DNA of 64,000 nt. Source: Flectonema sp. DT1601. Lineage: Eukaryota. This document shows positions 1 to 56,090 of this stretch, piece after piece; the stretch's first letter is position 1, and every line of letters starts with the position of its first letter. The stretch lies in the NCBI GenBank assembly GCA_964019425.1, contig OZ025803.1:682001-746000 (forward strand), in the 5' to 3' direction. A program made the position numbers and the translations under genes. Under the pieces are notes generated by a model. That model searched no databases. It saw nothing but the letters and a program-made list of their open reading frames with translations, and was not told the DNA's origin.

Positions 1-3000
1 GCTCTCGCCCAGCTATACGCTAGCGTTGTTGATATCTCTTTCGACAGTGCCCTCCACGCCTCTGCCGGTCTCCGTGTCCTCAGAGAAATCGCCTTGATGA
101 AGGCCGCAGCTGCCTCATTCATGGCCCCGTCGCGCGTGAAGACTAGAGGAACGAAAGCTATTCCCTTCGAGCTACACTCCTCCCCGTATTTCTTCACCTT
201 TTCCCTCTCCTTCGCCTGGATGACCCGCCTCGCATCCAAGTGCGATCCCCGGGACAGACTTGTCTGCGAGCATACCTCGATGACCGTCACGTCGTACGCC
301 GCCGGTCTTCCTGTCCAGTTTCGTGTCGTTCCCGGCACTGCCTCGCTTACCAGGATGTCGGCCGGTTTCCTCCCTCCATCTAGGATTCGTTGCGGCTCCA
401 TTTCCACGGACATCCCCGTCACCCTTGCCTGCTTCGCCAGGAAATCCCTGACTAGGTTATGGCGTATGGTTGGCGTTGCCCCCCGGTTACACATCCCTGC
501 GTGCACCCCCCGAGGGTCTAGCTTAGCGTTGCACCTCTTGCATAGCTGTCCCGCCTGTAAGACCTCCAGCCCTAAATGCGCCCTGATCGCGGTCCGGAAA
601 ATTTGCGACGGCATCACGGTTCCCGTGTCGCTTGCCTCCGCCAACCACGCACTCGCCCTCGGCATGGACACCGCTCTGAAGTGTGCAAGTCTTTCTCGGT
701 CTCCGCTCCCCTTCAGGTCGTTGACCATCTTCGTTTTCAGCGAGGCGTCGATCTTCATTGACAGCTCTCTCTGTCGCACTACCTTATCGAGGTCCAGGTC
801 GCACTCCTCCGAGGTCTCCAGCGTCAGCGCTTTACACACCCCACTCCACTCCTCAGGGTCGACTTGGTATTGGGCGTCCAGCTCCACGCACAGTTTCCTC
901 GTCGCAGTGGCCGACGCTGCTCTGCCCGCCGCCGCGTGTCTCCCACAGTTTCGCAGGCCCACCCCCCCTTCCCGCAAAGGTAGCTCCGCCTGTAAGTGCG
1001 CCCGCTCATCCATATCCCCACCCACGAGACCCCGCAACACGCTTCTCACCACCGCATCGAAATCTGCCAGACCTGATCGCTGGTCCTCCAGGTACATTGA
1101 CCTCATCAAGTATACCATCTTCCCATACGAATGGCAGTATCGTAGCTGGGTCAGCGCTACGTGCCGATCCGGTAGCATCGTCAGTGACTCGCTTACTTTC
1201 TTCAGCTTCGTCACGTACTGCAGCAGGTATTCCTTGCAGTAGCTCCCACTCCCTACCGGTAGCTTGAGAATGGTGAAGTTTCCCTCGGACTCTTGTTTCA
1301 CCTTCTCCAAGCCCCCCTTCGGTTCCAGGCCCACCCGCAGAGGTACGAATACGCACTTCGCCTCCTTTACCTTTAGCCCCAGGCTTGATGCCTTTTGTAC
1401 CAGGTAGTCGTACGCCTTCGCTAGTTCGTCTACGCCTCCCATCAACACTCCATCGTCTAAGAACCAGAGGCTTCCATCCAGTCCCATCTTCTTGAGTCCC
1501 TCCAGTAGGCTTTTTATCCCGAGTGAGAAAAGGAGAGGCCCCGCCGGATCCCCCTGTTGGGCCCCCTCCCTCGACGGAATCGTGGTATCCTCAAAAAAGA
1601 GGCTCGTCGGTCTCTCGTAACACCACGATGCCAAAGGCAACAGTTCCGGCAGCGTGGACGCCAGCTCACGCAGGAACACCGCCCTCGAGACACAGTTAAA
1701 AGCGTTCTCAAAATCAATGGTCAGGATTGCCTTGTTGGCCCCCCTGTTCCTCTTCGCGTAGTCCCGTACTATTGCGTACACCGCCTCCACCCCACTGGGT
1801 ACCGCCACCCCCAGCTGTCCTCCTGGCTTTAAGAGGTTTGGTATCTTGGGCCTTATTTTTGCTAGCACTATCTTCCACGCCCACCTCCGCAGTGATTCCC
1901 CTACTGCTATTGGTCTATACCCGGTCGGCTCTTTCTTCAGCGCGATCAGGCGAGCTCCTGCCAACACCGGTGCCGCCTCATAAGGTACTTTCCCTCTTAC
2001 CAGTAGCTCTAATGTAGTGCAGAGCGTTGGCATCAACCCTCGCAGTCCCGTGTCGCACGCTTGCTTCAGGAGCTCCACGCTTAATCCCGACGGTCCGGCC
2101 CCCGTGTCCTTCGGGAATGTCTTCAGCGATGCTAGTGCTTCCTCCGGCGACACTACTGTGTTCCCCGTTCTCACCCCCTCCAGGTCTATCTTCTCGTGCA
2201 TGGGACTCGGGTGGATGGTCTGCATCGCCGCCAGGACTTCCGGCGCGTTCGGCGCTAGCCCGCTCGACACCAGGCATTTATTAGCCTGCGCGTACCTCCC
2301 TCTCCTGCTCAGGGCGCAGCACCGCTCATACCGTTCTCCCTGTGTCGTTTCCTTCTCCCGTCGTCTTTTGTTCCTCTTTGCCCTCGTGCTCCACATCGCT
2401 ACATACTCTCCCCTCAGCCATCCTTCCAGCCTGCTCGTCAGCCTCTCCCTATGCGTCTCTGTCCCCTTCTCATCCTTCCGCACCGCCGGCGTTCCCAGGC
2501 ATGCTTTCGGGAGCATCAATAGCAGCTTCCATGCCCGCGGGTCATTCCGCTGTGCTATCCGTTGCAATGTTGCCATGAGAGCTCTCGCCCACAACATCGT
2601 CAGCCTCTCGTCCAACTTTTTTGGCACCACTACCTGTGCCGCCCCTATCTCCTCCCACGACGGCAGCTCTCCAAGCTCTTTTTCGTCTGGCCACGGGGCG
2701 TTCTGAACCTCTTCCTCCCCCCCATCTAGCGCCATGGCTTCTCTACATCTCGGGTGGACCCCGGTGCTGCTTCCCGTCAGACACCCACACATCGTGCATG
2801 GTCGCACCCCCATCGCCTGCTGCTCCGCCTCCGTGAGAGGGCGATCTGACAGGAGGTGCTCCTTGTTCAAGTGGCCTAATAGTCCTCCCCAGTTCTTATA
2901 TCCCTCAAATCGCTGGGCGCGTGATCGCGAGCATTCTCCCCTGGGGCAGTAGTAAGGCCCAGACCCCCTCAGTCCCGCGCTTGGTCCCGTCCCCAGGCCT

Positions 3001-6000
3001 ATCCTCACCGCAGCCTCTTCAGCCGTTTGTTCGGAGAGCTTCAGCACATACACCGCCTCGGCTCTCTCCTCCACCCGATTGAGCATTTCGGCGTCCGCTT
3101 GGAGCACTGCCTCGTAGTGTTCTTTATCCAGCACTATCCACAGCGGGATGTCCTCAGTCCTTCTCAGGGGCAGCATCTTTAGGAGTCTCCCCGCCTCCCA
3201 CACTATGATCACTACTCCCATCTGGTCCGCCGCAACCTGCAGCGCTACGTTGTCCCCCCATCCCTTGTTCTCCAGTCGTACAGCGTAGTCCTCCTTGGCC
3301 AGTCCGTTGACGAACCATTGGTCCGTCCTCTCTTCACCTCTCATGTATTCCGCGAGTCTCTTCCGCAGCACCCTCGCACCCACTCGCCGATTCCATTCTC
3401 CCTTCGCCAGTAGGATTGCTCGGAACATACAGTCCCCATCCCCCTTAGTCTTGGTTACACTGACTCTCGGGAACTCCCTCTGTAGTTCTATGGACGTGCT
3501 TGGCGTTGCTTCCCCCTCCACCTCTCTGGAGCTGCTCAACTTCCTACACCTTGGGTGCATACTGGCCGTCCCCTTCATTGCTCGTCCGCAGTGTCCGCAC
3601 GCCTTCATGCCGCAGTCAGCCCACTGGTCCTGTCCCAATTGACCTTTATGCTTCCCATCTATGTGTGCCAGCAGGCCATTCTCCGTCCCAGACCACTCAC
3701 ACACTGGGCAGCTCGCACCCCCACCTCTCATCTCGTGGGGCTGCTGCTTGCAACTGCTTCTCGGCTTTGACGTCGACTGTTCATCTTCCGGCGCTCTCTC
3801 TTCCTTTGTTCGTCCCCCACTTTTCGTTTTCCGGGCCTTTTCCCGCTTCTTCTCTTGTTTCTTGTGCCATCGCGCTGGTGGACTCAGTCTCCACCTGTCG
3901 CTCGCCCGGTTTGGCCCCCTCACCTGTTGCGTGATTTCTTCCTGATACCTCTCGGTCTCATTCGTTCCCGCACAACCCACTAGCTTTGGCTGAGGGAATA
4001 ACCATATCGTGGGCTCCAGTTTTTGACATGCTAAAGACGGTAATATTCCTGTTGCCATATGTGTCCCTAGACCCGGCATATCCCTGAGTATCTCTAATTC
4101 CAACATGGCCCGCCACCTCTTTGTATACTCCTGTTCGTGTGCCATTGTCGTGTTCATCCCAGGCCCCCGCGTTGATGCCGTCTCACTCCCTGCCCCTAGT
4201 GTGCGGTTTGTCTTCGACTGGCTGTGCCCCCTCCTCGTGTACGACACGAGCGTGGGTTCTCTAGGCCCCGTCTCCGCATACCTCCTCGGGGCTGCCCCTT
4301 CGCCAAACACATTGTGTCTACTCCTCGAGTACGGCACCAACGCGAGTGCTCCAGGCCCAGCCTCCGCACAGCCCACCGGAGCCGCCCCTTCGCCAATCAC
4401 GTTGTGTCCACTCCCCGAGTACGACACTGTGAGTGCTCCAGGCCCAGCCTCCGCGTAGCTCCCCGGAGCTGTCCCTTCGCCAAACACGTTGTGTCCACTC
4501 CCCGAGTACGACACCGTGAGTGCTCCAGGCCCAGCCTCCGCACAGCTCCCCGGAGCTGTCCCTTCGCCAAACACCTTGTGTCTACTCCCCGAGTACAACA
4601 CCGTGAATGCTCCGGGCCCAGCCTCCGCATAGCTCACCGGAGCTGTCCCTTCGCCAAACACGTCGTGTCTACCCCCCGAGTACAACACCGTGAGTGCTCC
4701 AGGCCCAGCCTCCGCACAGCTCCCCGGAGCTGTCCCTTCGCCAAACACCTTGTGTCTACCCCCCGAGTACAACACCGTGAATGCTCCGGGCCCAGCCTCC
4801 GCATAGCTCACCGGAGCTGTCCCTTCGCCAAACACCTTGTGTCTACCCCCCGAGTACAACACCGTGAGTGCTCCAGGCCCAGCCTCCGCACAGCTCCCCG
4901 GAGCTGTCCCTTCGCCAAACACCTTGTGTCCACTCCCCGAGTACGACACCGTGAATGCTCCAGGCCCAGCCTCCGCGTAGCTCACTGGAGCTGTCCCTTC
5001 GCCAAACACGTCGTGTCCACTCCCCGAGTACGACACTGTGAGTGCTCCAGGCCCAGCCTCCGCGTAGCTCCCCGGAGCTGTCCCTTCGCCAAACACCTTA
5101 TGTCCACTCCTCGAGTGCGACACCGTGAGTGCTCCAGGCCCAGCCTCCGCATAGCTCACCGGAGCTGTCCCTTCGCCAAACACGTTGTGTCCACTCCCCG
5201 AGTACGACACCGTGAGTGCTCCAGGCCCAGCCTCCGCGCAGCTCCCCGGAGCTGTCCCTTCGCCAAACACATTATGTCCACTCCTCGAGTGCGACACCGT
5301 GAGTGCTCCAGGCCCAGCCTCCGCATAGCTCACCGGAGCTGTCCCTTCGCCAAACACCTTGTGTCCACTCCCCGAGTACGACACCGTGAGTGCTCCAGGC
5401 CCAGCCTCCGCGTAGCTCCCCGGAGCTGTCCCTTCGCCAAACACATTATGTCCACTCCTCGAGTGCGACACCGTGAGTGCTCCAGGCCCAGCCTCCGCAT
5501 AGCTCACCGGAGCTGTCCCTTCGCCAAACACATTATGTCCACTCCTCGAGTGCGACACCGTGAATGCTCCAGGCCCAGCCTCCGCATAGCTCACTGGAGC
5601 TGTCCCTTCGCCAAACACGTCGTGTCCACTCCCCGAGTACGACACTGTGAGTGCTCCAGGCCCAGCCTCCGCGTAGCTCCCCGGAGCTGTCCCTTCGCCA
5701 AACACATTATGTCCACTCCTCGAGTGCGACACCGTGAGTGCTCCAGGCCCAGCCTCCGCATAGCTCACCGGAGCTGTCCCTTCGCCAAACACCTTGTGTC
5801 CACTCCCCGAGTACGACACCGTGAGTGCTCCAGGCCCAGCCTCCGCGTAGCTCCCCGGAGCTGTCCCTTCGCCAAACACCTTGCGTCCACTCCCCGAGTA
5901 CGACACCGTGATTGCTCCAGGCCCAGCCTCCGCACAGCCCGCCGGAACTGTCCCTTCGCCAAACACCTTGTGTCTACTCCCCGAGTACAACACCGTGAAT

Positions 6001-7853
6001 GCTCCGGGCCCAGCCTCCGCATAGCTCCCCGGAGCTGTCCCTTCGCCAAACACATTATGTCCACTCCTCGAGTGCGACACCGTGAGTGCTCCAGGCCCAG
6101 CCTCCGCACAGCCCGCCGGAACTGTCCCTTCGCCAAACACCTTGTGTCTACTCCCCGAGTACGACACCGTGAATGCTCCGGGCCCAGCCTCCGCATAGCT
6201 CACCGGAGCTGTCCCTTCGCCAAACACATTATGTCCACTCCTCGAGTGCGACACCGTGAGTGCTCCAGGCCCAGCCTCCGCACAGCTCCCCGGAGCTGTC
6301 CCTTCGCCAAACACGTTGTGTCCACTCCCCGAGTACGACACCGTGAGTGCTCCAGGCCCAGCCTCCGCACAGCCCGCCGGAACTGTCCCTTCGCCAAACA
6401 CCTTGTGTCTACTCCCCGAGTACAACACCGTGAATGCTCCGGGCCCAGCCTCCGCATAGCTCCCCGGAGCTGTCCCTTCGCCAAACACATTATGTCCACT
6501 CCTCGAGTGCGACACCGTGAGTGCTCCAGGCCCAGCCTCCGCACAGCTCCCCGGAGCTGTCCCTTCGCCAAACACGTTGTGTCCACTCCCCGAGTACGAC
6601 ACCGTGAGTGCTCCAGGCCCAGCCTCCGTCTCTGCCAGTTGGTCGAGCACGCTGTGCTCCATCCTCTCGCCGTGGGTATTGAGCTCCGACCTCTCCGCCT
6701 GCTGCTCTTTCGGGTCATAGATTCTCCCATCCGTGACAAACACCACTTCCCCCTTTCCCTCGCTCGTCAACTGGTAAAAGACGTCCACAGCCATCTGGAG
6801 GTCACTCTGGAGCATCGAACCTCTGGAGTTGGAATCCGCACACAAACCGACGCCCGTACTTGACTTATCCGAAAGCATTCCACCAGTACTAGTCCCCAAC
6901 GGTGTCCTTCCTAACAGAGATCCGCGCTTATCCCTGTCTGTGAACCGGGATGGCTCCATCTGTGCTCCCTTCAATTCTACCACCAATTCCTGTCCCATGT
7001 CCGTTTTGCCACCGTTCAGCGGTAGCAGCTTGTTCCAAACGCGCTGAGTCTCCCTCTGTCCATCAGAACCGTGTGAGTGCCGAGCGAAGGTATCGAACAC
7101 CGATTCTACTCCATGTGCAAAGAGAACTAGATCCAGTGTAGGGTATCGCTCATGCTTGGTCACAGCACAGAGACACTCCAGGGCTGAAGAATTATGGAAG
7201 CACTTCATCCTTGCCCGGCATTCGCTACGGTCAAGGTCCTTGCTCTCTTGGCCAGCGTAGTCTGCCGAGCTACCGTTAAAAGTGCACCAAGGGCTCGTGT
7301 CATGGGCCGTCTTGCTCGTCGAACAGCGTTCAGCACCTCCTTGTGACGGGGTGAGTGAAAGATCCCAGTAACAATGCAGTTCCTCATCGTATCGCCCCTC
7401 TTCGGAGTGGTTTACGGCACACGTGCTTCTCTGCCACTCGAAGTGCCGACTGTTGCCGTATCGTTCTGCCACATATCGCTTCTCAATGCACTGAACACCG
7501 TCATTTGCCCCATTGTACGCATCCTCATGGTCGACCGCCACCGTCCCGGAAAAGTCGTAGGTCTGAGTCGGGAAAGGGACCGCTAGTTGTCCATAAACGC
7601 ATGTCGAACCTGCGAAGTCCATGGTAGATGTCGCCTGCCCCAAACATGCACCGGCGCGTTCCCCTTCGTCGGATCTTTCAATCGGCTGTTCAGTACACCC
7701 CAAATTCAATCTATTCCACACGTCGTCATCTGTACCAGCAAGACATCCCTGATTCGCCCCTTCGCTAAAAGGCAGCGATCCTCCCTCCAGCTGATGGTTG
7801 GCGGTCACACTTCCCGCAAAGACGCAGGCTAACCACATCACATGATACATCAT
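1..7853 (-). CDS. Retrotransposon polyprotein, at least 2617 aa, partial at 3' end: N-terminal extension, 29-aa repeats, ZnF, OTU, ZnF, RT, CCHC, RLE
   Basis: Hand translation begins MMYHVMWLACVFAGSVTA at 7853. RT motifs: AGPSGL, YRPIAVGESLRR, QLGVAV, IDFENAFN, GAQQGDPAGPLLF, WFLDDG (1466-1449). Then CKRC..H..C, RHNLVRD, RKPADIL, YDVTV, EREKVKKY and FVPLVFTRDG. The track lists no closed ORF in this frame, consistent with no stop before the edge. Confidence 0.93.
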   Translation of the reverse strand, partial: MMYHVMWLACVFAGSVTANHQLEGGSLPFSEGANQGCLAGTDDDVWNRLNLGCTEQPIERSDEGERAGACLGQATSTMDFAGSTCVYGQLAVPFPTQTYDFSGTVAVDHEDAYNGANDGVQCIEKRYVAERYGNSRHFEWQRSTCAVNHSEEGRYDEELHCYWDLSLTPSQGGAERCSTSKTAHDTSPWCTFNGSSADYAGQESKDLDRSECRARMKCFHNSSALECLCAVTKHERYPTLDLVLFAHGVESVFDTFARHSHGSDGQRETQRVWNKLLPLNGGKTDMGQELVVELKGAQMEPSRFTDRDKRGSLLGRTPLGTSTGGMLSDKSSTGVGLCADSNSRGSMLQSDLQMAVDVFYQLTSEGKGEVVFVTDGRIYDPKEQQAERSELNTHGERMEHSVLDQLAETEAGPGALTVSYSGSGHNVFGEGTAPGSCAEAGPGALTVSHSRSGHNVFGEGTAPGSYAEAGPGAFTVLYSGSRHKVFGEGTVPAGCAEAGPGALTVSYSGSGHNVFGEGTAPGSCAEAGPGALTVSHSRSGHNVFGEGTAPVSYAEAGPGAFTVSYSGSRHKVFGEGTVPAGCAEAGPGALTVSHSRSGHNVFGEGTAPGSYAEAGPGAFTVLYSGSRHKVFGEGTVPAGCAEAGPGAITVSYSGSGRKVFGEGTAPGSYAEAGPGALTVSYSGSGHKVFGEGTAPVSYAEAGPGALTVSHSRSGHNVFGEGTAPGSYAEAGPGALTVSYSGSGHDVFGEGTAPVSYAEAGPGAFTVSHSRSGHNVFGEGTAPVSYAEAGPGALTVSHSRSGHNVFGEGTAPGSYAEAGPGALTVSYSGSGHKVFGEGTAPVSYAEAGPGALTVSHSRSGHNVFGEGTAPGSCAEAGPGALTVSYSGSGHNVFGEGTAPVSYAEAGPGALTVSHSRSGHKVFGEGTAPGSYAEAGPGALTVSYSGSGHDVFGEGTAPVSYAEAGPGAFTVSYSGSGHKVFGEGTAPGSCAEAGPGALTVLYSGGRHKVFGEGTAPVSYAEAGPGAFTVLYSGGRHKVFGEGTAPGSCAEAGPGALTVLYSGGRHDVFGEGTAPVSYAEAGPGAFTVLYSGSRHKVFGEGTAPGSCAEAGPGALTVSYSGSGHNVFGEGTAPGSYAEAGPGALTVSYSGSGHNVIGEGAAPVGCAEAGPGALALVPYSRSRHNVFGEGAAPRRYAETGPREPTLVSYTRRGHSQSKTNRTLGAGSETASTRGPGMNTTMAHEQEYTKRWRAMLELEILRDMPGLGTHMATGILPSLACQKLEPTIWLFPQPKLVGCAGTNETERYQEEITQQVRGPNRASDRWRLSPPARWHKKQEKKREKARKTKSGGRTKEERAPEDEQSTSKPRSSCKQQPHEMRGGGASCPVCEWSGTENGLLAHIDGKHKGQLGQDQWADCGMKACGHCGRAMKGTASMHPRCRKLSSSREVEGEATPSTSIELQREFPRVSVTKTKGDGDCMFRAILLAKGEWNRRVGARVLRKRLAEYMRGEERTDQWFVNGLAKEDYAVRLENKGWGDNVALQVAADQMGVVIIVWEAGRLLKMLPLRRTEDIPLWIVLDKEHYEAVLQADAEMLNRVEERAEAVYVLKLSEQTAEEAAVRIGLGTGPSAGLRGSGPYYCPRGECSRSRAQRFEGYKNWGGLLGHLNKEHLLSDRPLTEAEQQAMGVRPCTMCGCLTGSSTGVHPRCREAMALDGGEEEVQNAPWPDEKELGELPSWEEIGAAQVVVPKKLDERLTMLWARALMATLQRIAQRNDPRAWKLLLMLPKACLGTPAVRKDEKGTETHRERLTSRLEGWLRGEYVAMWSTRAKRNKRRREKETTQGERYERCCALSRRGRYAQANKCLVSSGLAPNAPEVLAAMQTIHPSPMHEKIDLEGVRTGNTVVSPEEALASLKTFPKDTGAGPSGLSVELLKQACDTGLRGLMPTLCTTLELLVRGKVPYEAAPVLAGARLIALKKEPTGYRPIAVGESLRRWAWKIVLAKIRPKIPNLLKPGGQLGVAVPSGVEAVYAIVRDYAKRNRGANKAILTIDFENAFNCVSRAVFLRELASTLPELLPLASWCYERPTSLFFEDTTIPSREGAQQGDPAGPLLFSLGIKSLLEGLKKMGLDGSLWFLDDGVLMGGVDELAKAYDYLVQKASSLGLKVKEAKCVFVPLRVGLEPKGGLEKVKQESEGNFTILKLPVGSGSYCKEYLLQYVTKLKKVSESLTMLPDRHVALTQLRYCHSYGKMVYLMRSMYLEDQRSGLADFDAVVRSVLRGLVGGDMDERAHLQAELPLREGGVGLRNCGRHAAAGRAASATATRKLCVELDAQYQVDPEEWSGVCKALTLETSEECDLDLDKVVRQRELSMKIDASLKTKMVNDLKGSGDRERLAHFRAVSMPRASAWLAEASDTGTVMPSQIFRTAIRAHLGLEVLQAGQLCKRCNAKLDPRGVHAGMCNRGATPTIRHNLVRDFLAKQARVTGMSVEMEPQRILDGGRKPADILVSEAVPGTTRNWTGRPAAYDVTVIEVCSQTSLSRGSHLDARRVIQAKEREKVKKYGEECSSKGIAFVPLVFTRDGAMNEAAAAFIKAISLRTRRPAEAWRALSKEISTTLAYSWAR
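3105..3470 (-). other. OTU-family cysteine protease domain within the retrotransposon ORF
   Basis: TKGDGDCMFRAILL (Cys codon 3431-3429), LRKRLAEYM, KGWGDNVALQVAADQMGVVIIVW and LDKEHYEAV (His codon 3119-3117), in canonical OTU order. Confidence 0.88.
4230..6628 (-). repeat. 87-bp coding tandem repeat, about 27 copies; 29-aa unit S(C/Y)AEAGPGALTVSYSGSGHNVFGEGTAPG
   Basis: The motif ggcccagcctccg recurs every 87 bp from 4354 to 6616, with a degenerate copy near 4264. The repeats are in frame with the RT. Confidence 0.97.
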
Positions 7854-7862
7854 CTCACAAGG

Positions 7863-7903
<41 letters not shown>

Positions 7904-8294
7904 CTTCTTCCGTTGCCGAGGCGGGTTGGTCAGGCGAGTTAGGGAAAGGTAAAGGTCTAAGTCGGGTCCTCCTTGTAGCGACACAGACAGGAGTCTCTGA
8001 CTTGGAAAAAGGAAAGAAAAGGGGAGAGCTTATCTCTAGTCTTATCCTTGTACTCTTCTTCTATTCAACAAAACAACGTCAAACGCTTAGGGGCAAAGAG
8101 TACCTGAGAGACGGCAAGGCGAGACAAATTTCCCGTTCCGCGCACTCCAAACACTGATAAGCTGGTCGACAATATATCAATAAAATGAATACACAATCAC
8201 AAAGAATAACGTAAATTAAGATTAAAATAAAGGTAACGGTTACCACTGTGGATAGTTGATTTTTTTTTTAAATAAAAAAAAAATTTCACCACTC

Positions 8295-8365
8295 GCGTTT
8301 TTGTTCAGTGGTTATTTATGTCGACTTACAGTCGATTCGCCGGGGTTCAATTCTCTATGGGGGTC
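8295..8365 (+). pseudogene. Degenerate tRNA-like sequence (TAC anticodon loop, Val-like) in the retroelement 5' region
   Basis: A-box-like TGTTCAGTGG, anticodon arm GTCGA-CTTACAG-TCGAT and B-box GGTTCAATTC. The acceptor stem pairs poorly. Confidence 0.5.
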
Positions 8366-8406
8366 AGGGGGCGATCAGGGGCGACTTCTACGACTTCGAA
8401 GACTTA

Positions 8407-11400
8407 GAAGACGCAGAAACGCAAAGACGCAGCACGCTCACGGACGTACGTGAGACCTGCGGTTGCCGATCTTCTTCTTTTGTTGGAGGGGATGGGTGGT
8501 CGGGTTAGCGAGATTCACTAGCTCGAGAAAAAGATTCGAGGTCGTTGAAACTGCTCTCTGACAGGGTGGTGAAAACTGAGAGGAAGGAGAAGTAATTCGT
8601 TACAAAAGAAACAAGAATTTACAACAATGTTCCAGCAAAAGAGAAGGTGCTCGCTGTCTGACTTCAGTTCGCTCTCAACTTTTCTTTGTCTCGCGAAGAC
8701 GCAGAAACGCAAAGACGCAGCACGCTCACGGACGTACGTGAGACCTGCGGTTGCCGATCTTCTTCTTTTGTTGGAGGGGATGGGTGGTCGGGTTAGCGAG
8801 ATTCACTAGCTCGAGAAAAAGATTCGAGGTCGTTGAAACTGCTCTCTGACAGGGTGGTGAAAACTGAGAGGAAGGAGAAGTAATTCGTTACAAAAGAAAC
8901 AAGAATTTACAACAATGTTCCAGCAAAAGAGAAGGTGCTCGCTGTCTGACTTCAGTTCGCTCTCAACTTTTCTTTGTCTCGCGAAGACGCAGAAACGCAA
9001 AGACGCAGCACGCTCACGGACGTACGTGAGACCTGCGGTTGCCGATCTTCTTCTTTTGTTGGAGGGGATGGGTGGTCGGGTTAGCGAGATTCACTAGCTC
9101 GAGAAAAAGATTCGAGGTCGTTGAAACTGCTCTCTGACAGGGTGGTGAAAACTGAGAGGAAGGAGAAGTAATTCGTTACAAAAGAAACAAGAATTTACAA
9201 CAATGTTCCAGCAAAAGAGAAGGTGCTCGCTGTCTGACTTCAGTTCGCTCTCAACTTTTCTTTGTCTCGCGAAGACGCAGAAACGCAAAGACGCAGCACG
9301 CTCACGGACGTACGTGAGACCTGCGGTTGCCGATCTTCTTCTTTTGTTGGAGGGGATGGGTGGTCGGGTTAGCGAGATTCACTAGCTCGAGAAAAAGATT
9401 CGAGGTCGTTGAAACTGCTCTCTGACAGGGTGGTGAAAACTGAGAGGAAGGAGAAGTAATTCGTTACAAAAGAAACAAGAATTTACAACAATGTTCCAGC
9501 AAAAGAGAAGGTGCTCGCTGTCTGACTTCAGTTCGCTCTCAACTTTTCTTTGTCTCGCGAAGACGCAGAAACGCAAAGACGCAGCACGCTCACGGACGTA
9601 CGTGAGACCTGCGGTTGCCGATCTTCTTCTTTTGTTGGAGGGGATGGGTGGTCGGGTTAGCGAGATTCACTAGCTCGAGAAAAAGATTCGAGGTCGTTGA
9701 AACTGCTCTCTGACAGGGTGGTGAAAACTGAGAGGAAGGAGAAGTAATTCGTTACAAAAGAAACAAGAATTTACAACAATGTTCCAGCAAAAGAGAAGGT
9801 GCTCGCTGTCTGACTTCAGTTCGCTCTCAACTTTTCTTTGTCTCGCGAAGACGCAGAAACGCAAAGACGCAGCACGCTCACGGACGTACGTGAGACCTGC
9901 GGTTGCCGATCTTCTTCTTTTGTTGGAGGGGATGGGTGGTCGGGTTAGCGAGATTCACTAGCTCGAGAAAAAGATTCGAGGTCGTTGAAACTGCTCTCTG
10001 ACAGGGTGGTGAAAACTGAGAGGAAGGAGAAGTAATTCGTTACAAAAGAAACAAGAATTTACAACAATGTTCCAGCAAAAGAGAAGGTGCTCGCTGTCTG
10101 ACTTCAGTTCGCTCTCAACTTTTCTTTGTCTCGCGAAGACGCAGAAACGCAAAGACGCAGCACGCTCACGGACGTACGTGAGACCTGCGGTTGCCGATCT
10201 TCTTCTTTTGTTGGAGGGGATGGGTGGTCGGGTTAGCGAGATTCACTAGCTCGAGAAAAAGATTCGAGGTCGTTGAAACTGCTCTCTGACAGGGTGGTGA
10301 AAACTGAGAGGAAGGAGAAGTAATTCGTTACAAAAGAAACAAGAATTTACAACAATGTTCCAGCAAAAGAGAAGGTGCTCGCTGTCTGACTTCAGTTCGC
10401 TCTCAACTTTTCTTTGTCTCGCGAAGACGCAGAAACGCAAAGACGCAGCACGCTCACGGACGTACGTGAGACCTGCGGTTGCCGATCTTCTTCTTTTGTT
10501 GGAGGGGATGGGTGGTCGGGTTAGCGAGATTCACTAGCTCGAGAAAAAGATTCGAGGTCGTTGAAACTGCTCTCTGACAGGGTGGTGAAAACTGAGAGGA
10601 AGGAGAAGTAATTCGTTACAAAAGAAACAAGAATTTACAACAATGTTCCAGCAAAAGAGAAGGTGCTCGCTGTCTGACTTCAGTTCGCTCTCAACTTTTC
10701 TTTGTCTCGCGAAGACGCAGAAACGCAAAGACGCAGCACGCTCACGGACGTACGTGAGACCTGCGGTTGCCGATCTTCTTCTTTTGTTGGAGGGGATGGG
10801 TGGTCGGGTTAGCGAGATTCACTAGCTCGAGAAAAAGATTCGAGGTCGTTGAAACTGCTCTCTGACAGGGTGGTGAAAACTGAGAGGAAGGAGAAGTAAT
10901 TCGTTACAAAAGAAACAAGAATTTACAACAATGTTCCAGCAAAAGAGAAGGTGCTCGCTGTCTGACTTCAGTTCGCTCTCAACTTTTCTTTGTCTCGCGA
11001 AGACGCAGAAACGCAAAGACGCAGCACGCTCACGGACGTACGTGAGACCTGCGGTTGCCGATCTTCTTCTTTTGTTGGAGGGGATGGGTGGTCGGGTTAG
11101 CGAGATTCACTAGCTCGAGAAAAAGATTCGAGGTCGTTGAAACTGCTCTCTGACAGGGTGGTGAAAACTGAGAGGAAGGAGAAGTAATTCGTTACAAAAG
11201 AAACAAGAATTTACAACAATGTTCCAGCAAAAGAGAAGGTGCTCGCTGTCTGACTTCAGTTCGCTCTCAACTTTTCTTTGTCTCGCGAAGACGCAGAAAC
11301 GCAAAGACGCAGCACGCTCACGGACGTACGTGAGACCTGCGGTTGCCGATCTTCTTCTTTTGTTGGAGGGGATGGGTGGTCGGGTTAGCGAGATTCACTA

Positions 11401-13183
11401 GCTCGAGAAAAAGATTCGAGGTCGTTGAAACTGCTCTCTGACAGGGTGGTGAAAACTGAGAGGAAGGAGAAGTAATTCGTTACAAAAGAAACAAGAATTT
11501 ACAACAATGTTCCAGCAAAAGAGAAGGTGCTCGCTGTCTGACTTCAGTTCGCTCTCAACTTTTCTTTGTCTCGCGAAGACGCAGAAACGCAAAGACGCAG
11601 CACGCTCACGGACGTACGTGAGACCTGCGGTTGCCGATCTTCTTCTTTTGTTGGAGGGGATGGGTGGTCGGGTTAGCGAGATTCACTAGCTCGAGAAAAA
11701 GATTCGAGGTCGTTGAAACTGCTCTCTGACAGGGTGGTGAAAACTGAGAGGAAGGAGAAGTAATTCGTTACAAAAGAAACAAGAATTTACAACAATGTTC
11801 CAGCAAAAGAGAAGGTGCTCGCTGTCTGACTTCAGTTCGCTCTCAACTTTTCTTTGTCTCGCGAAGACGCAGAAACGCAAAGACGCAGCACGCTCACGGA
11901 CGTACGTGAGACCTGCGGTTGCCGATCTTCTTCTTTTGTTGGAGGGGATGGGTGGTCGGGTTAGCGAGATTCACTAGCTCGAGAAAAAGATTCGAGGTCG
12001 TTGAAACTGCTCTCTGACAGGGTGGTGAAAACTGAGAGGAAGGAGAAGTAATTCGTTACAAAAGAAACAAGAATTTACAACAATGTTCCAGCAAAAGAGA
12101 AGGTGCTCGCTGTCTGACTTCAGTTCGCTCTCAACTTTTCTTTGTCTCGCGAAGACGCAGAAACGCAAAGACGCAGCACGCTCACGGACGTACGTGAGAC
12201 CTGCGGTTGCCGATCTTCTTCTTTTGTTGGAGGGGATGGGTGGTCGGGTTAGCGAGATTCACTAGCTCGAGAAAAAGATTCGAGGTCGTTGAAACTGCTC
12301 TCTGACAGGGTGGTGAAAACTGAGAGGAAGGAGAAGTAATTCGTTACAAAAGAAACAAGAATTTACAACAATGTTCCAGCAAAAGAGAAGGTGCTCGCTG
12401 TCTGACTTCAGTTCGCTCTCAACTTTTCTTTGTCTCGCGAAGACGCAGAAACGCAAAGACGCAGCACGCTCACGGACGTACGTGAGACCTGCGGTTGCCG
12501 ATCTTCTTCTTTTGTTGGAGGGGATGGGTGGTCGGGTTAGCGAGATTCACTAGCTCGAGAAAAAGATTCGAGGTCGTTGAAACTGCTCTCTGACAGGGTG
12601 GTGAAAACTGAGAGGAAGGAGAAGTAATTCGTTACAAAAGAAACAAGAATTTACAACAATGTTCCAGCAAAAGAGAAGGTGCTCGCTGTCTGACTTCAGT
12701 TCGCTCTCAACTTTTCTTTGTCTCGCGAAGACGCAGAAACGCAAAGACGCAGCACGCTCACGGACGTACGTGAGACCTGCGGTTGCCGATCTTCTTCTTT
12801 TGTTGGAGGGGATGGGTGGTCGGGTTAGCGAGATTCACTAGCTCGAGAAAAAGATTCGAGGTCGTTGAAACTGCTCTCTGACAGGGTGGTGAAAACTGAG
12901 AGGAAGGAGAAGTAATTCGTTACAAAAGAAACAAGAATTTACAACAATGTTCCAGCAAAAGAGAAGGTGCTCGCTGTCTGACTTCAGTTCGCTCTCAACT
13001 TTTCTTTGTCTCGCGAAGACGCAGAAACGCAAAGACGCAGCACGCTCACGGACGTACGTGAGACCTGCGGTTGCCGATCTTCTTCTTTTGTTGGAGGGGA
13101 TGGGTGGTCGGGTTAGCGAGATTCACTAGCTCGAGAAAAAGATTCGAGGTCGTTGAAACTGCTCTCTGACAGGGTGGTGAAAA
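8407..13183. repeat. 288-bp tandem array, 16 full units plus 169 bp, apparently identical copies
   Basis: The unit start gaagacgcagaaacgc occurs at 8407+288n up to 13015. Identical short ORF translations recur with a 288-bp period. Confidence 0.98.
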
Positions 13184-13218
13184 CAATAAAGTACAGAAAC
13201 TGTAGCTTTAGAATCGTT
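13184..13218 (-). ncRNA. Spliced-leader (mini-exon) sequence, 35 nt, retroposed rather than an SL RNA gene
   Basis: The minus strand reads AACGATTCTAAAGCTACAGTTTCTGTACTTTATTG, ending in the conserved euglenozoan CAGTTTCTGTACTTTATTG. It is followed by TTTT instead of the GT donor of an SL RNA intron. Confidence 0.92.
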
Positions 13219-13334
13219 TTTTTGGGAAAACCTACAGATCCACCCCCAGGTTTGGGGAAACGTACACTACGGTCACGGCCTTGTGTAACTTTTTTGACCC
13301 CTGGATATGTGTTTAAATCCGCAAAATCGAAGAC

Positions 13335-13405
13335 GACGCAAATTGTCGAGTGGTATGATTCCAGACTTGCATTCGCTAGGCTGCGGTTCGAACCCCTGTC
13401 GGGTC
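13335..13405 (+). pseudogene. tRNA-like sequence (TGC loop, Ala-like) followed by a T-run
   Basis: A-box TGTCGAGTGG, loop CTTGCAT, B-box GGTTCGAACCC, then about 23 T. The stems are imperfect. Confidence 0.55.
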
Positions 13406-14059
13406 TTTTTTTTTTTTTTTTTTTTTTTCCCCAGTGACCAACAGGTACACTGTCTGCACTGGCCGTTCGGTCAGGAACGCCGCCGCTGACGTCGTGCGTC
13501 GTATCCGTACTGCTGATTCGTTCTGTCACGTTCGGACACTCGTCGCTCTGAGACATTGCTTAGTGCAGGTTGCTGACTAACAACATCGTTTGAAAGTCTT
13601 ACACCAGAACCTCATTGGTACCTTACAAAGACCCTGCATCAAATTCACACGCGGGTCGTTCTTCAAGGTCAATAGTGTAAACTTCCACTCGACTTAGGAC
13701 CTCGCTTGGAAGCCTTCTGTCATCGCGCAATTCTTCCTTAAGTTAAGTTAAACTTAACTTTAACATAAGAGAGTAATCCATCGTCCTGTTAACCTCTATT
13801 CTCTCATCATGGTGTAGAAGTAAGTTAGTCAACTATTGATGTAGTTACTTAATTGTAATGTTCATAAAAAAACATTCTTATTGTTGTAATCTTTTGGACG
13901 CAAGCCCTAACACGATCAAAAAGTAACCACCAGTGGTGACTAAGTGATCCAGTCTGGCTTACTTCAAAGGCTAACATAGTCAAGCACAGTCACTGCGGAT
14001 GTGTTGTGTAGCATCACGGCTCCGATCGGAGAACCGTAGATACCAGGGACTAGAAACGG

Positions 14060-14250
14060 GAGTTCCTCTCGTACTACCCCGTATTGCGGTCGACTTACAC
14101 TGCCCCAAGGGGGTCTCTCCCCATCAGTAGGTAAAACTTGTCTCATGACGGTCCTGTTAGTGGGTGAACTATCCAACCCTTGGACAATTCTGCTTGTCTA
14201 GGCTAGGAAGAGCCGACATTGAAGGATCAAAAGCAATGAACGCTTGGCTG
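14060..14250 (-). pseudogene. Degenerate LSU (28S) rRNA fragment covering the domain V-VI region; may extend to about 13945
   Basis: The minus strand has CAGCCAAGCGTTCAT, GATCCTTCAATGTCGGCTCTTCCTA, GTTCACCCACTAA, CCGTCATGAGACA and the sarcin-ricin loop AGTACGAGAGGAAC (14075-14062), with internal deletions relative to the conserved rRNA. Confidence 0.9.
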
Positions 14251-14500
14251 GGTTTGCAGGCCCCAAAAGCTGAACGAAAAAATTGGGCCGTTCGAATCAC
14301 TAACTTGCATGTTGTCGGTTGCAGTCATCACTCACCTGTCAGCATACTCTTTACCTTAATTACGCTTAACCCTAACGATGATTTGTACTTTAAATACTAC
14401 CACGTTGGTAGTATTTAAAAGTTAACAAAGCCTTAAAAAAAATTGAGTAACAGCGAGACGAACAGATGCCCAGAAAAAAAATTCCGGAAAAAAAAAAAAA

Positions 14501-14572
14501 TCCCCCCGAGGGACTCGAACCCCCTACCTCCAGGGCTTCAGTCCGGCACCAACACCACTGCGCTATCACGGA
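14501..14572 (-). pseudogene. tRNA-like sequence (GAA loop, Phe-like) followed by a T-run
   Basis: A-box TAGCGCAGTGG, loop CTGAAGC, B-box GGTTCGAGTCC and a downstream T tract. The stems are imperfect. Confidence 0.6.
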
Positions 14573-15011
14573 TTCGAAAAAAATTTCGCCCAGAATAGAG
14601 GGCTGTCGATTTGGAAAAAAGGTCAAAAAAGCTACACAAGGCCGTGACCGTAGTATACGTTTCTCCAAACCTGGGGGTGGATCTGTAGGTTTTCCCTTTT
14701 TTTTTTTTCATCTATTTGAGTTTGTCTAATCCCGATCCGTCGATACCCGAGGATAAACGGTCAACAATTCAGAAAACTGACGAAGGGTGTGAAGACAAAT
14801 CTCAAGGGGGGGGAGTTATGGAAGAGGGGTAATACTGTTGTTAAGATTTGTATATCACCAAACCTGTCTACTTTTGTGACAGACTCCATCATCCAGTAGT
14901 GGCACTAAAGTAATCAAGAACGGCATGGAGTTAGCCTCTATTAGGGAAAAGACAATGACATACAACGTCAACAACAGTTATATAAAATAACAAACGAAAT
15001 ATATTTACTGA

Positions 15012-15043
<32 letters not shown>

Positions 15044-15579
15044 CGTAACTAAAAAAAACAAGAGAAGGGGAAAGGGGAAGGTGGCTAATTAACATGTGTG
15101 AGTGATTGAGAGACGGGCGAGGAAAAGAATTAAAAGTTTATCTGCTGTCACACTGTTGAATAGTTCGTTTGCACAAGTAGGTATCCTTAATGCAACTTTC
15201 TAAATATTGCGATATCTTTATATATAAAAAAAAAACAAAAAAAAAAACAACAAAAAACAAAACCAAAAAACCACACTGAAGCAATGTGGACATCACCACA
15301 AAGAATAAAGTCCGTTTGCTTAGTTTTTTTTAAATCGGGGGGGGTTAAGCTCCTTATGAATAGCTCTCCCTTGGATTTTTTTTTTTTTTCATATCAACAC
15401 TCAGCGCTACTATACAATATGGGGTCACTACATGTTTTAATTTACTGACAGGCAGAGCAAGAAAAAAGCAGATCAGTATGAATGCTGCTCATAGAAGAAT
15501 ACGCATTGAGCGGGACACTTCTTAATCATCAGACCCGTGCCTCGTAGATGAGGTGTAAGGATGTAACAAGAATAACAAA

Positions 15580-25020: not shown

Positions 25021-28000
25021 TTACAATAGCTCAAGCAGTTTTGACCTCTCATCTACAAAGTTAGCATCCCTGATGAGCGCTTGGACGATGAAATTACTGA
25101 TTTTTGGTATCTGGAGATCCTTAACTTCCTTTGGATCATTTACAATGAGCGAATCAACGTATTCCAATACAGGCTCTTGAGACGCCGCTAAATTGTACAT
25201 CCACTCTCCGCCAAGGTCTTCCTTACAACTGACAATCTCGTAGATAAGGGTTGGCTTCACAGAAGTATTCTCAAACAGAATCCTAGTAACGATATTCATG
25301 TGAAAGTGTACCTCTTCTACTCTGAACTTTCCGTCGGCAAGAATGCTCGTATCAAACTTTTTATTCAGACGCATGAGAGCAAATGATCCAGAAATGCAGT
25401 CACCAATAATGGCAAATTTCTTCATTCCGATAACACCCATGTTGCCAACACGGCAACTTGAAGATGAGCAACCCGCTTGTATCGCAAGGTTCTTGTTACC
25501 AACTAAATGAACAGCTGCTTTTAATGCGTTTTGTTTATGAATAGAACAGTTCATTACAGCATTCCAAGAGATACAGATCCTATCACCAGTGAATGACTCA
25601 GGAATACCTTTAAATTGCTTCACAGTTGTCAACGTGTGATTTAAGTACTCTGTGTGAGTGCTTATCAAGATTTGTTCATCTAACTTCCTAAAGCCAGACA
25701 GATTGATGGTTACTATGGAGACAGCTTTATTTTTTAATTGACCCACTTGAAGGTGAGCAAGTCTTCCTGCGTTATTTGAATGCATGGAATTACTAGTCTT
25801 GCTTTTTTCACTCTTTCCTGCCGAAGAGGAATCTTTTGTACCAATCACACCCGAGCCCGCGCCGCTTTTTTCTTCTTCCGACGAGTCGACCAATAGAGAA
25901 GATGGCATGTAGTTACGATACTCTTGAAGTGTTTTAATAATCTTCAAGAAAGCTTTTTGAATCTTATTCGGATTCTGAAGCCCCGACAGGTACGATACCT
26001 CCTCTAGCCTCATCCATGCTATCGCTTCAGCACACTCTTCTGCAATCTTGTTGTTGTTGTACAACGCCGCCATCTTCCTACGCTGCTTCGTACTGAACCA
26101 AAACCCAACCAATCCTGCTATTACAATCACCGCACCGATGATCCCAAATATCCAAAACGGAAACTTCTTCTTCAACTTACAACCTCGAACATTATAAGAC
26201 ATCGCTTGGTTCAAAGTACTCCCGCTGACTATCGCAAAGGAATCCATGTACTGCGTCTGAAGGTTCGTACACAACGCTTCATCTGCCCTGTAGGTAGCTT
26301 CAGGGAATGTGATGATTGAATACTTGCTCAGCGTTTTCCCACCCGATACCAACTTTCCAAACTTCGGAGCGCTAGTCACTTGCCAAGGACCGGTGCCTTT
26401 GAAGGCGATTCTGTTCGATGCTCCTTCCTTGCCCTCCAACGTCGCTGTGTTCTCAGCTGCTGCAGCTGTAACATCGATGTGTGTGAAGTAGGACTCAGTT
26501 CGACGGAAACGGTTGCCCGGGCAGTCAGTCAACTTAAATTCGAAAGTATCAACTCCCGTAAAACCGTTCTCAGGAACATAAACGACACTACTATTGGGAG
26601 GAATATATCCCGTGTTGGGATCTATCGATCCGACAATGAGGAAAGCATCGATCTCATTCCAACCAGGAGTGTTGCAGGTGTCTAACTCGACGATCAGCTC
26701 GTCAGCGAAGTACCACGTGCTGCACATTCCCGGAGGCTTCTGAATCAAGTACTCATCAGGTATCACTGGTACATTGTGATCTCCCGCATACAATCGCTTC
26801 CAAGTATTGGTTGTGTTGTCTTTCGTCCGCAGTCCCACAACACTGCCAACTCCAACGGTTTCAAATGTATAAATATGTTTGATGTAAATCGGAACATCCC
26901 ATTTGACGTGAATAAATTCCGTCCAAAATAGATCCCCATTCCCACTATCAACACAATTAACAGCAGTCAATGGTGCCCATGCCAAGTCGCTATCTCCGAA
27001 CCTCTTGTCTTTCACAGGCGGTCCCAGGGCTTGAAGGGCCCCCCACCTATGATTAGGACCTTGGTACTCACTTGAGAAATTCAGTAAAGTCGTCGCATAC
27101 TGCTCCAACTCATCCACACCAGCCGCTGTTTTCGTCAGCTTTCGGATCTTGTTCCCAACTTTATCCGTCAGCCACAAGTCCCCATGTTTTGGTGTTGACA
27201 TTAATTCGATAATAGGATCATCACCATCGAAGTCCAGTACTTTGTAATTTAATAATACTTCAGTGTCTTGAGTTGTTGTGAAGTTTACTTTACCATCTTC
27301 CAACTCAGGCAGATCGTTAGAAGCTGGAACCTGAATGTAAACAGTCGCTTGCGGGAGTTGTTTTATCGCATCCATGTCGTTGAAACGCGCCTTGTCCACC
27401 ACTGCATAGTCAAAATCCGTGTATCGAATGCTGTATTCATTGGGAAGTGGCTCAAACAGTAGCGAAGTCCAACCACCAGCTCCATCAGCCGTAACTACGA
27501 ACGAGTAGGGTTCAGTGATTTCACCCGCAACGACGTCGGGGAATAACCAAGCTGATTTGGTGTTACTTTGTTGATAATAGAGTTTTCCCCGGGAAGGAAG
27601 TCGGGTGATTACGATAACTGTTTCCACAGCATCAGGGTTGTCGTACTGCTCTTCCAAAACTACATCACCATCAATAACCTTCGAGTCTTCAGGAATAACT
27701 ACTATCAAGTCACGTGGAACTAACGGAGGACTGTATTTCAGAGTAATCGTTTGAACCTCTACTCCAACTCGAAATGTCATCGTCTGGCGAGCTCCAACCG
27801 TCGCACTCATCCAGACGGGTCCCACGTAAATCACATTTGTTGTCACTGTCTGTCCCACAACTACCAACGTGTTCGTTCCCTCGACGAACAATTCACCCGC
27901 CGACAAACTGGTAATTATGTAGCCGCCAGTATCTGTTAGATCACGGATATCAATCAACGTCTTCACATTTGGAGCTACGTGAATTGTTAATCCAATACCA

Positions 28001-40092: not shown

Positions 40093-40461
40093 TTTAACTG
40101 AGATGAAATATAACAACAATGGATTCTTCAAATTACGTAATGAATTAATAACTTAGCTCCTCAAGTAGGTGAGTCATTCCTGTGCTACGATGACAAATAT
40201 TGAACAACTGACTTGAGAATGAATGAATAAAAAAGATTGAAACTTTCCTCACCGCGACAGAATTGTAATCAAAATCGTAAACAACTTGAGAAAGGAATGG
40301 TAAGAACCTCAAAGCTGATCGTGTCGTTTATAATAGAAAGCAATCAGGTTAGGTGTGTAGATGCAAGACGGTAACAATCAGGCCTTCACATGTACAATAT
40401 AATAACAACGTCCTCTGTGTAATGAAGTGGATAGCGAGGAATAGTTGTCAGGTTGGGTACT

Positions 40462-55634: not shown

Positions 55635-56090
55635 TATAGATTCTCGTTGAACACTGTAAGTAAGAATAATACAAATACTAAGAAAGTGCAAGAGCTGTCC
55701 TTATCCTATTCCCAACAATCATATACCTACATAAACCATTTGAATTATAAGATTACCCTCACAAGATACACTCAGTATCAATATTCCACATAATCCGCCA
55801 GAAGGCGGTCACTTTAATTGGGTTTAGGGGACACTTATGTTCAGGGTTGTAGTGTATGAGCGAAGGAAGGAAATAGACAAAGAATGAAAAATAGAAAATA
55901 TTCAGTAAATTTATTTTTATCATAAATAATGTTATTTATTTTTTTTTTTTTCGCCTTTTTATCTATTAGTTCACACTACTCAGAATAACAGTCGCAGAAA
56001 GAAAAGAAAAATAAGTTGTTTGTTTTCTTTAGTTTTCATTTTTTTTTTTTTTTTTCTTTTCTTAAAATAAGTATATTCTCATCTTCTCAT

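What the first reader, a model, noticed from the sequence alone, without database searches (positions are those of the whole stretch)
13160..13223. Trans-splicing junction fixed in the genome: the retrotransposon's 5' end is an SL exon joined exactly at an AG acceptor
Seen: on the minus strand every internal 288-bp unit reads ...cttctccttcctctcAG|ttttcaccaccc. The outermost unit instead reads ...CTGTACTTTATTG|ttttcaccaccc, so everything up to and including the AG is replaced by the SL exon at single-base precision. There is no GT donor and no SL intron. Known: euglenozoan mRNAs receive a 39-nt SL at pyrimidine-tract/AG sites. Inference: this copy was reverse-transcribed from a trans-spliced RNA, so the host spliceosome defines the element's 5' end, not a promoter or a ribozyme.
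Basis: partly seen in the sequence, partly recalled or inferred. Interest (0 to 1): 0.92.

Follow-up and report, generated by a model that had tools for sequence, protein, structure and literature searches.

The report
Leader-capped retrotransposon with spare splice sites
A young jumping gene in a protist (likely a diplonemid) begins with a clipped DNA copy of the short leader that such cells splice onto their messenger RNAs, joined exactly where a unit repeated 16 times has a splice-acceptor-like signal, so this copy was likely made from a spliced RNA, and the repeats would give the element spare splice sites for later rounds of copying.

Summary
The junction is real. On the minus strand, spliced-leader (SL) letters 5-39 (13218-13184) replace the pyrimidine tract and AG that end each of 16 identical 288-bp units. 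Metagenome loci show this sequence is a true SL: it heads transcript-like contigs and SL RNA genes. Here letters 1-4 and the GT donor are missing and a Mutator-type transposon end lies upstream, so this is not an SL gene target. Eight other truncated genomic copies start at SL letters 5-7, as a cap-blocked reverse transcriptase would leave. The 5.3-kb leader has no ATG and precedes a CRE/SLACS-like ORF of a young, dispersed family. Best reading: this copy was reverse-transcribed from trans-spliced RNA. The array likely supplies spare acceptors and is re-expanded in DNA. No reads, RNA, sister-copy DNA or 3' end could be seen, and 'no promoter' is unproven. SL-tagged retrocopies are known from dinoflagellates, and this scan noted SL-headed elements earlier on other DNA (Euglena-type, dinoflagellate, tunicate). 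The acceptor array is the new part.

The parts
13184..13218 (-). Spliced-leader exon letters 5-39, no GT donor after it; letters 5-6 are ambiguous with the A-run
13219..13223 (-). A-run between the transposon end and the SL remnant; likely the insertion target
8407..13183 (-). 16 identical 288-bp units plus a 169-nt partial unit; each full unit ends in a 72-nt AG-free, pyrimidine-rich stretch and CAG (first internal acceptor G at 12896, last at 8576); no ATG
7854..8406 (-). Unique 553-nt leader without ATG; second strong acceptor-like site (19/20 pyrimidines, G at 8001); A40 at 7903-7864 just before the start codon
8292..8365 (+). Degenerate tRNA-Val-like piece, antisense inside the leader (found only at a relaxed threshold)
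   Evidence: not found at default threshold
1..7853 (-). Open ORF, 2617 aa to the window edge; sister copies continue 2027 aa further (UCH and RNase H1 N-terminal domains)
4223..6628 (-). 87-bp (29-aa) coding tandem repeat, 27.6 copies, about 90% alike; copy number differs between sister elements
3189..3446 (-). OTU-like protease domain (aa 1470-1555)
1344..1937 (-). Reverse transcriptase domain (aa 1973-2170)
186..542 (-). CCHC finger and restriction-like endonuclease motifs (aa 2438 onward: C-x2-C-x9-H-x3-C-x8-RHN...E...RKPAD...D...K)
13224..14696 (.). Upstream flank: non-coding element with 76-bp terminal inverted repeats (96%) whose ends match the Mutator-like transposon at 46376-49063; holds LSU rRNA fragments (14003-14248, minus) and two degenerate tRNA-like pieces; A-runs on both sides

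Best explanation
This is a copy of a young CRE/SLACS-like non-LTR retrotransposon whose first bases are letters 5-39 of the spliced leader, joined at the acceptor-like CAG of its own 288-bp leader unit, and it was likely reverse-transcribed from an RNA that the host spliceosome had trans-spliced there. Steps: (1, inferred) a donor copy was transcribed from upstream, most simply by host read-through; this copy is co-oriented with the neighbouring gene run. (2, inferred from the junction) the SL replaced everything 5' of one unit's AG, giving a capped RNA with no ATG before the ORF. (3, inferred) reverse transcription stopped at the methylated cap letters, leaving SL 5-39. (4, inferred) the cDNA was joined to an A-run next to a Mutator-type transposon end, helped by the SL's two A's. 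(5, inferred, about even odds) each round destroys the acceptor used, so the array serves as a stock of spare acceptors and is topped up by unequal exchange or slippage in DNA; the 16.6 identical units here may have grown after insertion.
For: Exact join at the best acceptor-like AG of 21, with only 1 nt of microhomology. The 33-mer is a real SL: of 118 metagenome loci, 67 are transcript-like ends (median 41 nt to the first ATG) and 28 are full 39-mers followed by GT. All 8 internal truncated loci begin at SL letter 5, 6 or 7, none at 2-4 (P about 0.004 if uniform and independent); reverse transcriptase stops at cap-4 methyls on trypanosome SL RNA (PMC6173450). No ATG in 841 non-redundant leader bases against 6.25 expected (P about 0.0007); it is the only absent trinucleotide, and nine non-coding control stretches of the window carry 13.5-21 ATG per kb. 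Upstream is a transposon end plus A-run. 12 of 14 ORFs of 290 aa or more outside the element share its strand. The family has 26 cluster members; the 15 listed sit on contigs of 12 different lengths, and two full-length copies are 99.8-99.9% identical in the core yet differ in coding-repeat number (23 and 27 motifs against 26 here), so its arrays change faster than point mutations arise.
Against: One copy's DNA only; no reads or RNA. A 16.6-unit RNA needs 16 identical acceptors and a stronger one at 8001 to be skipped, and in kinetoplastids such tracts also trigger upstream polyadenylation (PMC1874656, PMC6173450). The 8 truncated loci are not independent (5 share one record prefix), the search could only see copies that keep letters 7-39, and the SL-primed transcript contigs also show the leader starting near letter 6. 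The cap chemistry of this host was not found in the papers read. Perfect identity of the units could be a consensus-polishing effect, although the 87-bp repeat and the three tandem host genes keep their differences. The published SLACS/CRE endonuclease spacing pattern is not matched strictly.
Confidence: 0.75

Rival explanations
1. The SL-array-A40 block (13218-7864) is a separate SL-capped, polyadenylated non-coding RNA that was retroposed in front of the ORF; the SL then marks that passenger, not the autonomous element.
For: The block begins with an SL and ends in A40, the longest pure homopolymer of the window, 10 nt before the ATG. An A-run target would hide any target duplication.
Against: The whole block avoids ATG on the ORF strand (P about 0.0007; the unique 553 nt alone P = 0.002), as a leader of this ORF should. 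Runs of 20 or more A or T occur 20 times in the window. CRE-clade elements carry internal and 5' repeat regions (PMC12278014, PMC12857005).
Confidence: 0.09
2. SLACS-type target remnant: the element inserted into an SL RNA gene and the exon is the duplicated target, later cut off from its promoter by the Mutator-type insertion.
For: The closest named relative is annotated SLACS, and trypanosomatid SLACS/CZAR insert between SL letters 11 and 12 (PMC5814959). SL genes with this leader lie among tRNA genes, and one lies just after LSU rRNA (L029); the upstream flank holds tRNA-like and LSU pieces.
Against: Letters 1-4 are found on neither side of the transposon. The tRNA-like and LSU pieces lie inside the inverted repeats, and the flank nearest the SL aligns to L029's SL upstream no better than shuffles (score 20 against mean 19.5). 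No other SL in 64 kb. A target remnant has no reason to end at the unit's best AG. The family is dispersed, and D. papillatum has 745 SLACS-like genes against 110 SL genes (PMC10161547).
Confidence: 0.05
3. Assembly or library artefact: a cDNA-derived or mis-polished junction placed in the genomic contig.
For: Units are 100% identical; no reads could be laid on the stretch.
Against: The upstream join is coherent (intact inverted-repeat end followed by an A-run, as at the other three ends of this type), no N, and the same kind of clipped leader recurs in 8 other records.
Confidence: 0.05
4. The join arose without the spliceosome, by a template switch of the reverse transcriptase onto an SL-bearing RNA or by recombination with an SL cDNA.
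For: Template switching is a recalled property of non-LTR reverse transcriptases (no call).
Against: Only 1 nt of microhomology at the join while seven other positions offer 3-4. The unit's end is no more SL-like than chance (14/33, shuffle P = 0.09; host acceptors score 7-16). A switch onto SL RNA would be expected to bring the intron along.
Confidence: 0.03
5. Variant of the best explanation on the source of transcription (not exclusive of it): each 288-bp unit is an internal polymerase II promoter followed by an acceptor, like the repeated promoter monomers of mouse L1, so the element does not depend on host read-through.
For: Mouse L1 has a repeating promoter motif in its 5' UTR and trypanosome L1Tc an internal promoter (PMC5814959). 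Nothing here excludes it.
Against: No promoter test exists for this host in these tools; co-orientation with the gene run fits read-through but is one copy (even odds by chance).
Confidence: 0.3

Closest known systems
SLACS, CZAR, CRE1/CRE2 (CRE clade, trypanosomatids)
   Same: Single ORF with zinc fingers, RT and restriction-like endonuclease, internal repeat regions (PMC12278014, passages); SL sequence at the 5' junction; best named hit is a D. papillatum SLACS protein, 37% over 66% of the query.
   Different: Those insert into SL RNA genes between letters 11 and 12 (PMC5814959, passage), so their SL is target DNA. Here the SL lacks letters 1-4, has no SL-gene flank and ends at the element's own acceptor. 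The ORF is about 4,600 aa with OTU, UCH and RNase H1 N-terminal domains.
SL-tagged retrogenes of dinoflagellates
   Same: A DNA copy of the leader at the 5' end marks passage through a trans-spliced RNA (PMC6050394, PMC3942190; passages).
   Different: Those are passive copies of host mRNAs. This is an autonomous element with its own tandem acceptors, in a euglenozoan.
L1Tc/ingi with the Pr77 promoter and HDV-like ribozyme
   Same: Same problem: making a defined 5' end inside polycistronic transcription (PMC3383444, passages).
   Different: L1Tc and ingi RNAs are unspliced, and the authors argue that trypanosomatid LINEs avoid trans-splicing because it loses the sequence upstream of the acceptor (PMC1874656, passages). 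This copy accepted the splice; no ribozyme match was found here.
Mouse L1 5' monomers; 5' VNTRs of FoTeR/MoTeR
   Same: Tandem units in the 5' leader of a non-LTR element (PMC5814959 table; PMC12857005 passages).
   Different: L1 monomers are promoters; the units here end in an acceptor-like signal, and one such signal is replaced by the SL.
Cer1 of C. elegans
   Same: A retrotransposon RNA that takes a spliced leader at an internal acceptor, and whose long RNA must skip consensus sites (PMC3315495, passages).
   Different: LTR element; the SL1-spliced form is a short subgenomic RNA, not the template for new copies.

Membership tests
CRE-clade RLE non-LTR retrotransposon | Reverse transcriptase | tested here: met
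   RVT_1, E 3e-13; weak hits to solved R2 and L1 proteins
CRE-clade RLE non-LTR retrotransposon | CCHC finger and restriction-like endonuclease after the RT | tested here: inconclusive
   Core residues present in order, but neither the published SLACS/CRE spacing pattern nor my relaxed version matched
CRE-clade RLE non-LTR retrotransposon | Single ORF with zinc fingers before the RT and internal repeat regions | tested here: met
   One open frame; C2H2-like motifs at aa 1382 and 1636; 87-bp and 288-bp arrays
CRE-clade RLE non-LTR retrotransposon | Placement in the CRE clade on an RT tree | not tested
   No tree built; trypanosomatid SLACS/CZAR/CRE proteins were not among the listed hits. Best named hits are SLACS-annotated
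CRE-clade RLE non-LTR retrotransposon | 3' poly(A) tail and target-site duplication | not testable with these tools
   3' end lies about 6 kb beyond coordinate 1; no genome held
SL-gene-specific elements (SLACS/CZAR/CRE1/2) | 5' flank is the intact start of an SL RNA gene | tested here: not met
   Letters 1-4 absent; transposon end and A-run upstream
SL-gene-specific elements (SLACS/CZAR/CRE1/2) | Located in an SL gene array | tested here: not met
   No other SL in the window; protein-coding neighbours
SL-gene-specific elements (SLACS/CZAR/CRE1/2) | 3' flank is SL letters 12-39 plus intron | not testable with these tools
   Outside the window
SL RNA gene | 39-nt exon followed by GT donor and intron | tested here: not met
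   Followed by TT; 28 of 118 loci show the gene form for comparison
SL-tagged retrocopy (dinoflagellate type) | Leader remnant in DNA directly before a transcription unit, without donor | tested here: met
SL-tagged retrocopy (dinoflagellate type) | Same junction present in RNA | not testable with these tools
   No run could be used
Pr77 / HDV-ribozyme-headed LINEs | HDV-like ribozyme at the 5' end | tested here: inconclusive
   No ribozyme family at E up to 1 in 7.8-13.3 kb; unit folds no better than shuffles, z -0.46; divergent ribozymes can escape both

The most novel reading that the evidence does not exclude
A lineage descended from SL-gene-targeting retrotransposons has traded the SL gene as a landing site for the SL as a cap. 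It has no promoter or ribozyme of its own, is cut out of host polycistronic RNA by the spliceosome, and carries a punch-card of identical trans-splice acceptors: each round of copying spends at least one unit and DNA-level expansion refills the card.
Probability: 0.35. Interest if true: 0.82.

Novelty: new variant of a known kind. Interest (0 to 1): 0.6.

Why it matters
The published view for trypanosomatid LINEs is that they avoid trans-splicing because it would erode their 5' end (PMC1874656). This copy shows the opposite route and a possible fix, renewable acceptor units. If it holds for the family, the unit number of each copy would record its copying history, the clipped leader would report the host's cap methylation from DNA alone, and the origin of SL-linked retrotransposons becomes testable: target first or cap first. 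On its own, a leader on a retrocopy is expected in a cell that trans-splices nearly all mRNAs, which limits the score.

Tried and rejected
No whole genome is held. No sequencing run was listed for 12900-15500, so no reads were laid; this is no evidence either way. No related locus in viral contigs. SL-gene-cluster origin of the upstream flank: suggested by weak BLAST hits to SL-gene loci, rejected because these are tRNA and LSU pieces inside the inverted repeats and the proximal flank does not align. Decayed SL inside each unit: not significant. Structured RNA or ribozyme in the unit: none seen. Bacterial promoter scan: uninformative for this host. Viral-type promoter before the window's SL: absent. 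The ORF's first 431 aa give only weak VWA-like leads (scores 0.83-0.85); the ORF behind the clipped leader of L019 gave no Pfam or atlas hit, so it is not shown to be an element. The pattern was built from the four ends it finds and is circular; the independent evidence is the BLAST hit. The original SLACS, CRE1 and CRE2 papers and one SLACS transcription paper were not held; what they say about 5' repeats, target duplications or splicing could lower the novelty. That SLACS and CZAR have 5' tandem repeats is recalled, from no call.

Full report
Observation. On the minus strand the motif that opens the 288-bp unit occurs 17 times, from 13183 down to 8575. Sixteen are preceded by the same pyrimidine tract and CAG; the outermost is preceded by a spliced-leader 3' end whose last G is 13184. 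The 16 full units are identical and a 169-nt partial unit ends at 8407. The replaced AG is the best of 21 by pyrimidine content and closes a 72-nt AG-free stretch. Microhomology at the join is 1 nt; seven other positions offer 3-4.

The sequence is a real SL, but clipped. A near match (33 of 35 letters over positions 5-39) is listed as a euglenozoan SL in PMC3795323 (one passage). The exact 33-mer occurs in 118 metagenome loci. My script sorted all 118: 67 with the match near a contig end, transcript-like, median 41 nt to the first ATG; 28 with the full 39-mer and a GT donor (SL RNA genes, several among tRNA, snRNA, 5S or 7SL genes; one search scanned 14 loci); 15 with the full 39-mer and no gene-type donor; 8 internal and clipped. 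L019 was placed among the clipped by hand (49 non-SL bases upstream); L035 starts with GT but fell among the 15. The window keeps letters 5-39. The 8 clipped loci start at letter 5 (1), 6 (6) or 7 (1), none at 2-4. In T. brucei the cap and following four nucleotides are methylated and stop reverse transcriptase (PMC6173450, passages). Limits: the pattern only sees copies that keep letters 7-39, 5 of the 8 share a record prefix, the transcript-like contigs also show the leader from about letter 6, and this host's cap is unknown.

The flank is not an SL gene. 13224-14696 is bounded by 76-bp inverted repeats whose outer ends match those of the Mutator-like transposon at 46376-49063 (87.5% over 32 nt; transposase domains). 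All four ends abut A or T runs. Inside are LSU rRNA fragments and two decayed tRNA-like pieces; scattered 28S pieces and MULE are reported for D. papillatum (PMC10161547, passages). SL letters 1-4 are on neither side of this insert, and the proximal flank does not align with the DNA upstream of the rRNA-linked SL gene in L029.

The element. The ORF starts at 7853 and is open to the window edge, with a 29-aa repeat, two C2H2-like fingers, OTU, RT and endonuclease motifs. The top named relative is a D. papillatum SLACS protein; OTU or UCH domains recur in 5 of 8 long relatives scanned. Its own cluster has 26 members, 15 listed, on contigs of 12 different lengths; 11 of the 15 share one C-terminus and 2 of these are full length (4,614 and 4,730 aa) with the same N-terminus. 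This is the pattern of a young, dispersed family with many 5'-incomplete copies, though only proteins could be seen. The host is likely a diplonemid relative: the only named hit of a neighbouring exonuclease gene is D. papillatum at 29%.

Array and ORF belong together. From the SL to the start codon, 5,330 bases hold no ATG. In the 841 non-redundant bases 6.25 were expected (P about 0.0007 in 3,000 dinucleotide shuffles); the unit alone is not significant (P = 0.24), the unique part is (P = 0.002). Nine non-coding control stretches have 13.5-21 ATG per kb. Against this, the leader ends in A40, so the block could be a separate retroposed RNA; only sister-copy DNA can settle it.

Mechanism. Shown: the junction, the clipped leader, the flank, the ATG-free leader, the co-orientation with 12 of 14 large outside ORFs. 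Inferred: read-through transcription, trans-splicing at a unit's AG, a cap-blocked reverse transcription, and joining to an A-run. Each round would destroy the acceptor used, and a copy reduced to the partial unit would keep only the site at 8001. The array is therefore best read as spare acceptors. The difficulty is that a 16.6-unit RNA must escape 16 acceptors. Either splicing is weak (Cer1 must also skip consensus sites; PMC3315495, passages) or a short copy inserted and then grew: the array's 169-nt terminal repeats allow unequal exchange, the units are identical, and the coding repeat differs in number between copies that are 99.8-99.9% alike.

What is known. SLACS, CZAR and CRE insert into SL genes (PMC12278014, PMC5814959, PMC2696322; passages). 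L1Tc and ingi make unspliced RNA with a promoter and ribozyme (PMC1874656, PMC3383444; passages). SL-tagged retrogenes are established in dinoflagellates (PMC6050394, PMC3942190; passages). PMC4640811 and PMC12857005 (passages) gave clade background; PMC9326685 gave nothing relevant; the supplement search of PMC10161547 covered 7 files held as text. Listings of searches showed no paper on a euglenozoan non-LTR element headed by a trans-spliced leader or on tandem acceptor arrays, but the library lacks most subscription journals and the original SLACS/CRE papers. Earlier notes of this scan describe SL-headed elements in Euglena-type, dinoflagellate and tunicate genomes; they are unchecked and not support. 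None mentions an acceptor array.

Verdict. Observation confirmed; origin of this copy from trans-spliced RNA likely (about 0.85 for the junction, 0.75 for the whole account); spare-acceptor function about even; a new variant of a known kind; interest 0.6.

Noticed in passing
L017, L018, L030, L032, L044, L046, L058, L061, L069, L091, L100, L113, L116, L117, L119-L122: A full 39-nt copy of this leader sits in DNA without a donor, 9-69 nt before an ATG, and 18 or 19 nt behind an AAAA(A/T)TGA motif in 18 of 19 such loci (0 of 27 SL genes, 0 of 8 clipped loci). Four lie on one 237,777-bp viral contig with a VLTF3-like gene nearby. Likely giant viruses that write a diplonemid-type leader behind an early promoter (the motif's identity is recalled). 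The scan noted the same for dinoflagellate and kinetoplastid leaders; one search listed no paper on it.
   Followed up: partly
L019, L023, L043, L051, L063, L064, L094: Genomic-looking loci with the leader clipped to letters 5-7 onward and an ATG within 54 nt: likely processed retrocopies in diplonemid-type genomes. L064 and L094 show a short leader-like piece just downstream, as in recycled dinoflagellate mRNAs (by eye).
   Followed up: partly
L029:102-247; L077, L037, L027, L034: SL RNA genes directly after the LSU rRNA gene (L029) or inside dense clusters of tRNA, U1-U6, 5S and 7SL genes, unlike the SL-5S-U2 repeat of D. papillatum.
   Followed up: no
window 13224-14696: Non-autonomous Mutator-type element carrying deleted LSU rRNA fragments and a decayed tRNA-like piece near each end, each followed by a T-run.
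   Followed up: partly
window 46376-49063: Mutator-like transposon with 226-bp inverted repeats (92%), 31-bp subterminal repeats and a 650-aa transposase, inserted in a T-run.
   Followed up: partly
window 6560-7853 (-): The element's ORF begins with a hydrophobic, signal-peptide-like stretch (by eye) and a region with weak VWA-like features, unusual for a retrotransposon; conserved in two sister copies.
   Followed up: partly
window 25021-40131 (-): Three tandem genes of about 1,280 aa with Laminin G and cadherin-like domains, 95-98% identical in DNA.
   Followed up: no
window 54426-55691 and 62022-63077 (-): A protein with three tandem RidA/L-PSP domains, and an indoleamine 2,3-dioxygenase gene.
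   Followed up: no
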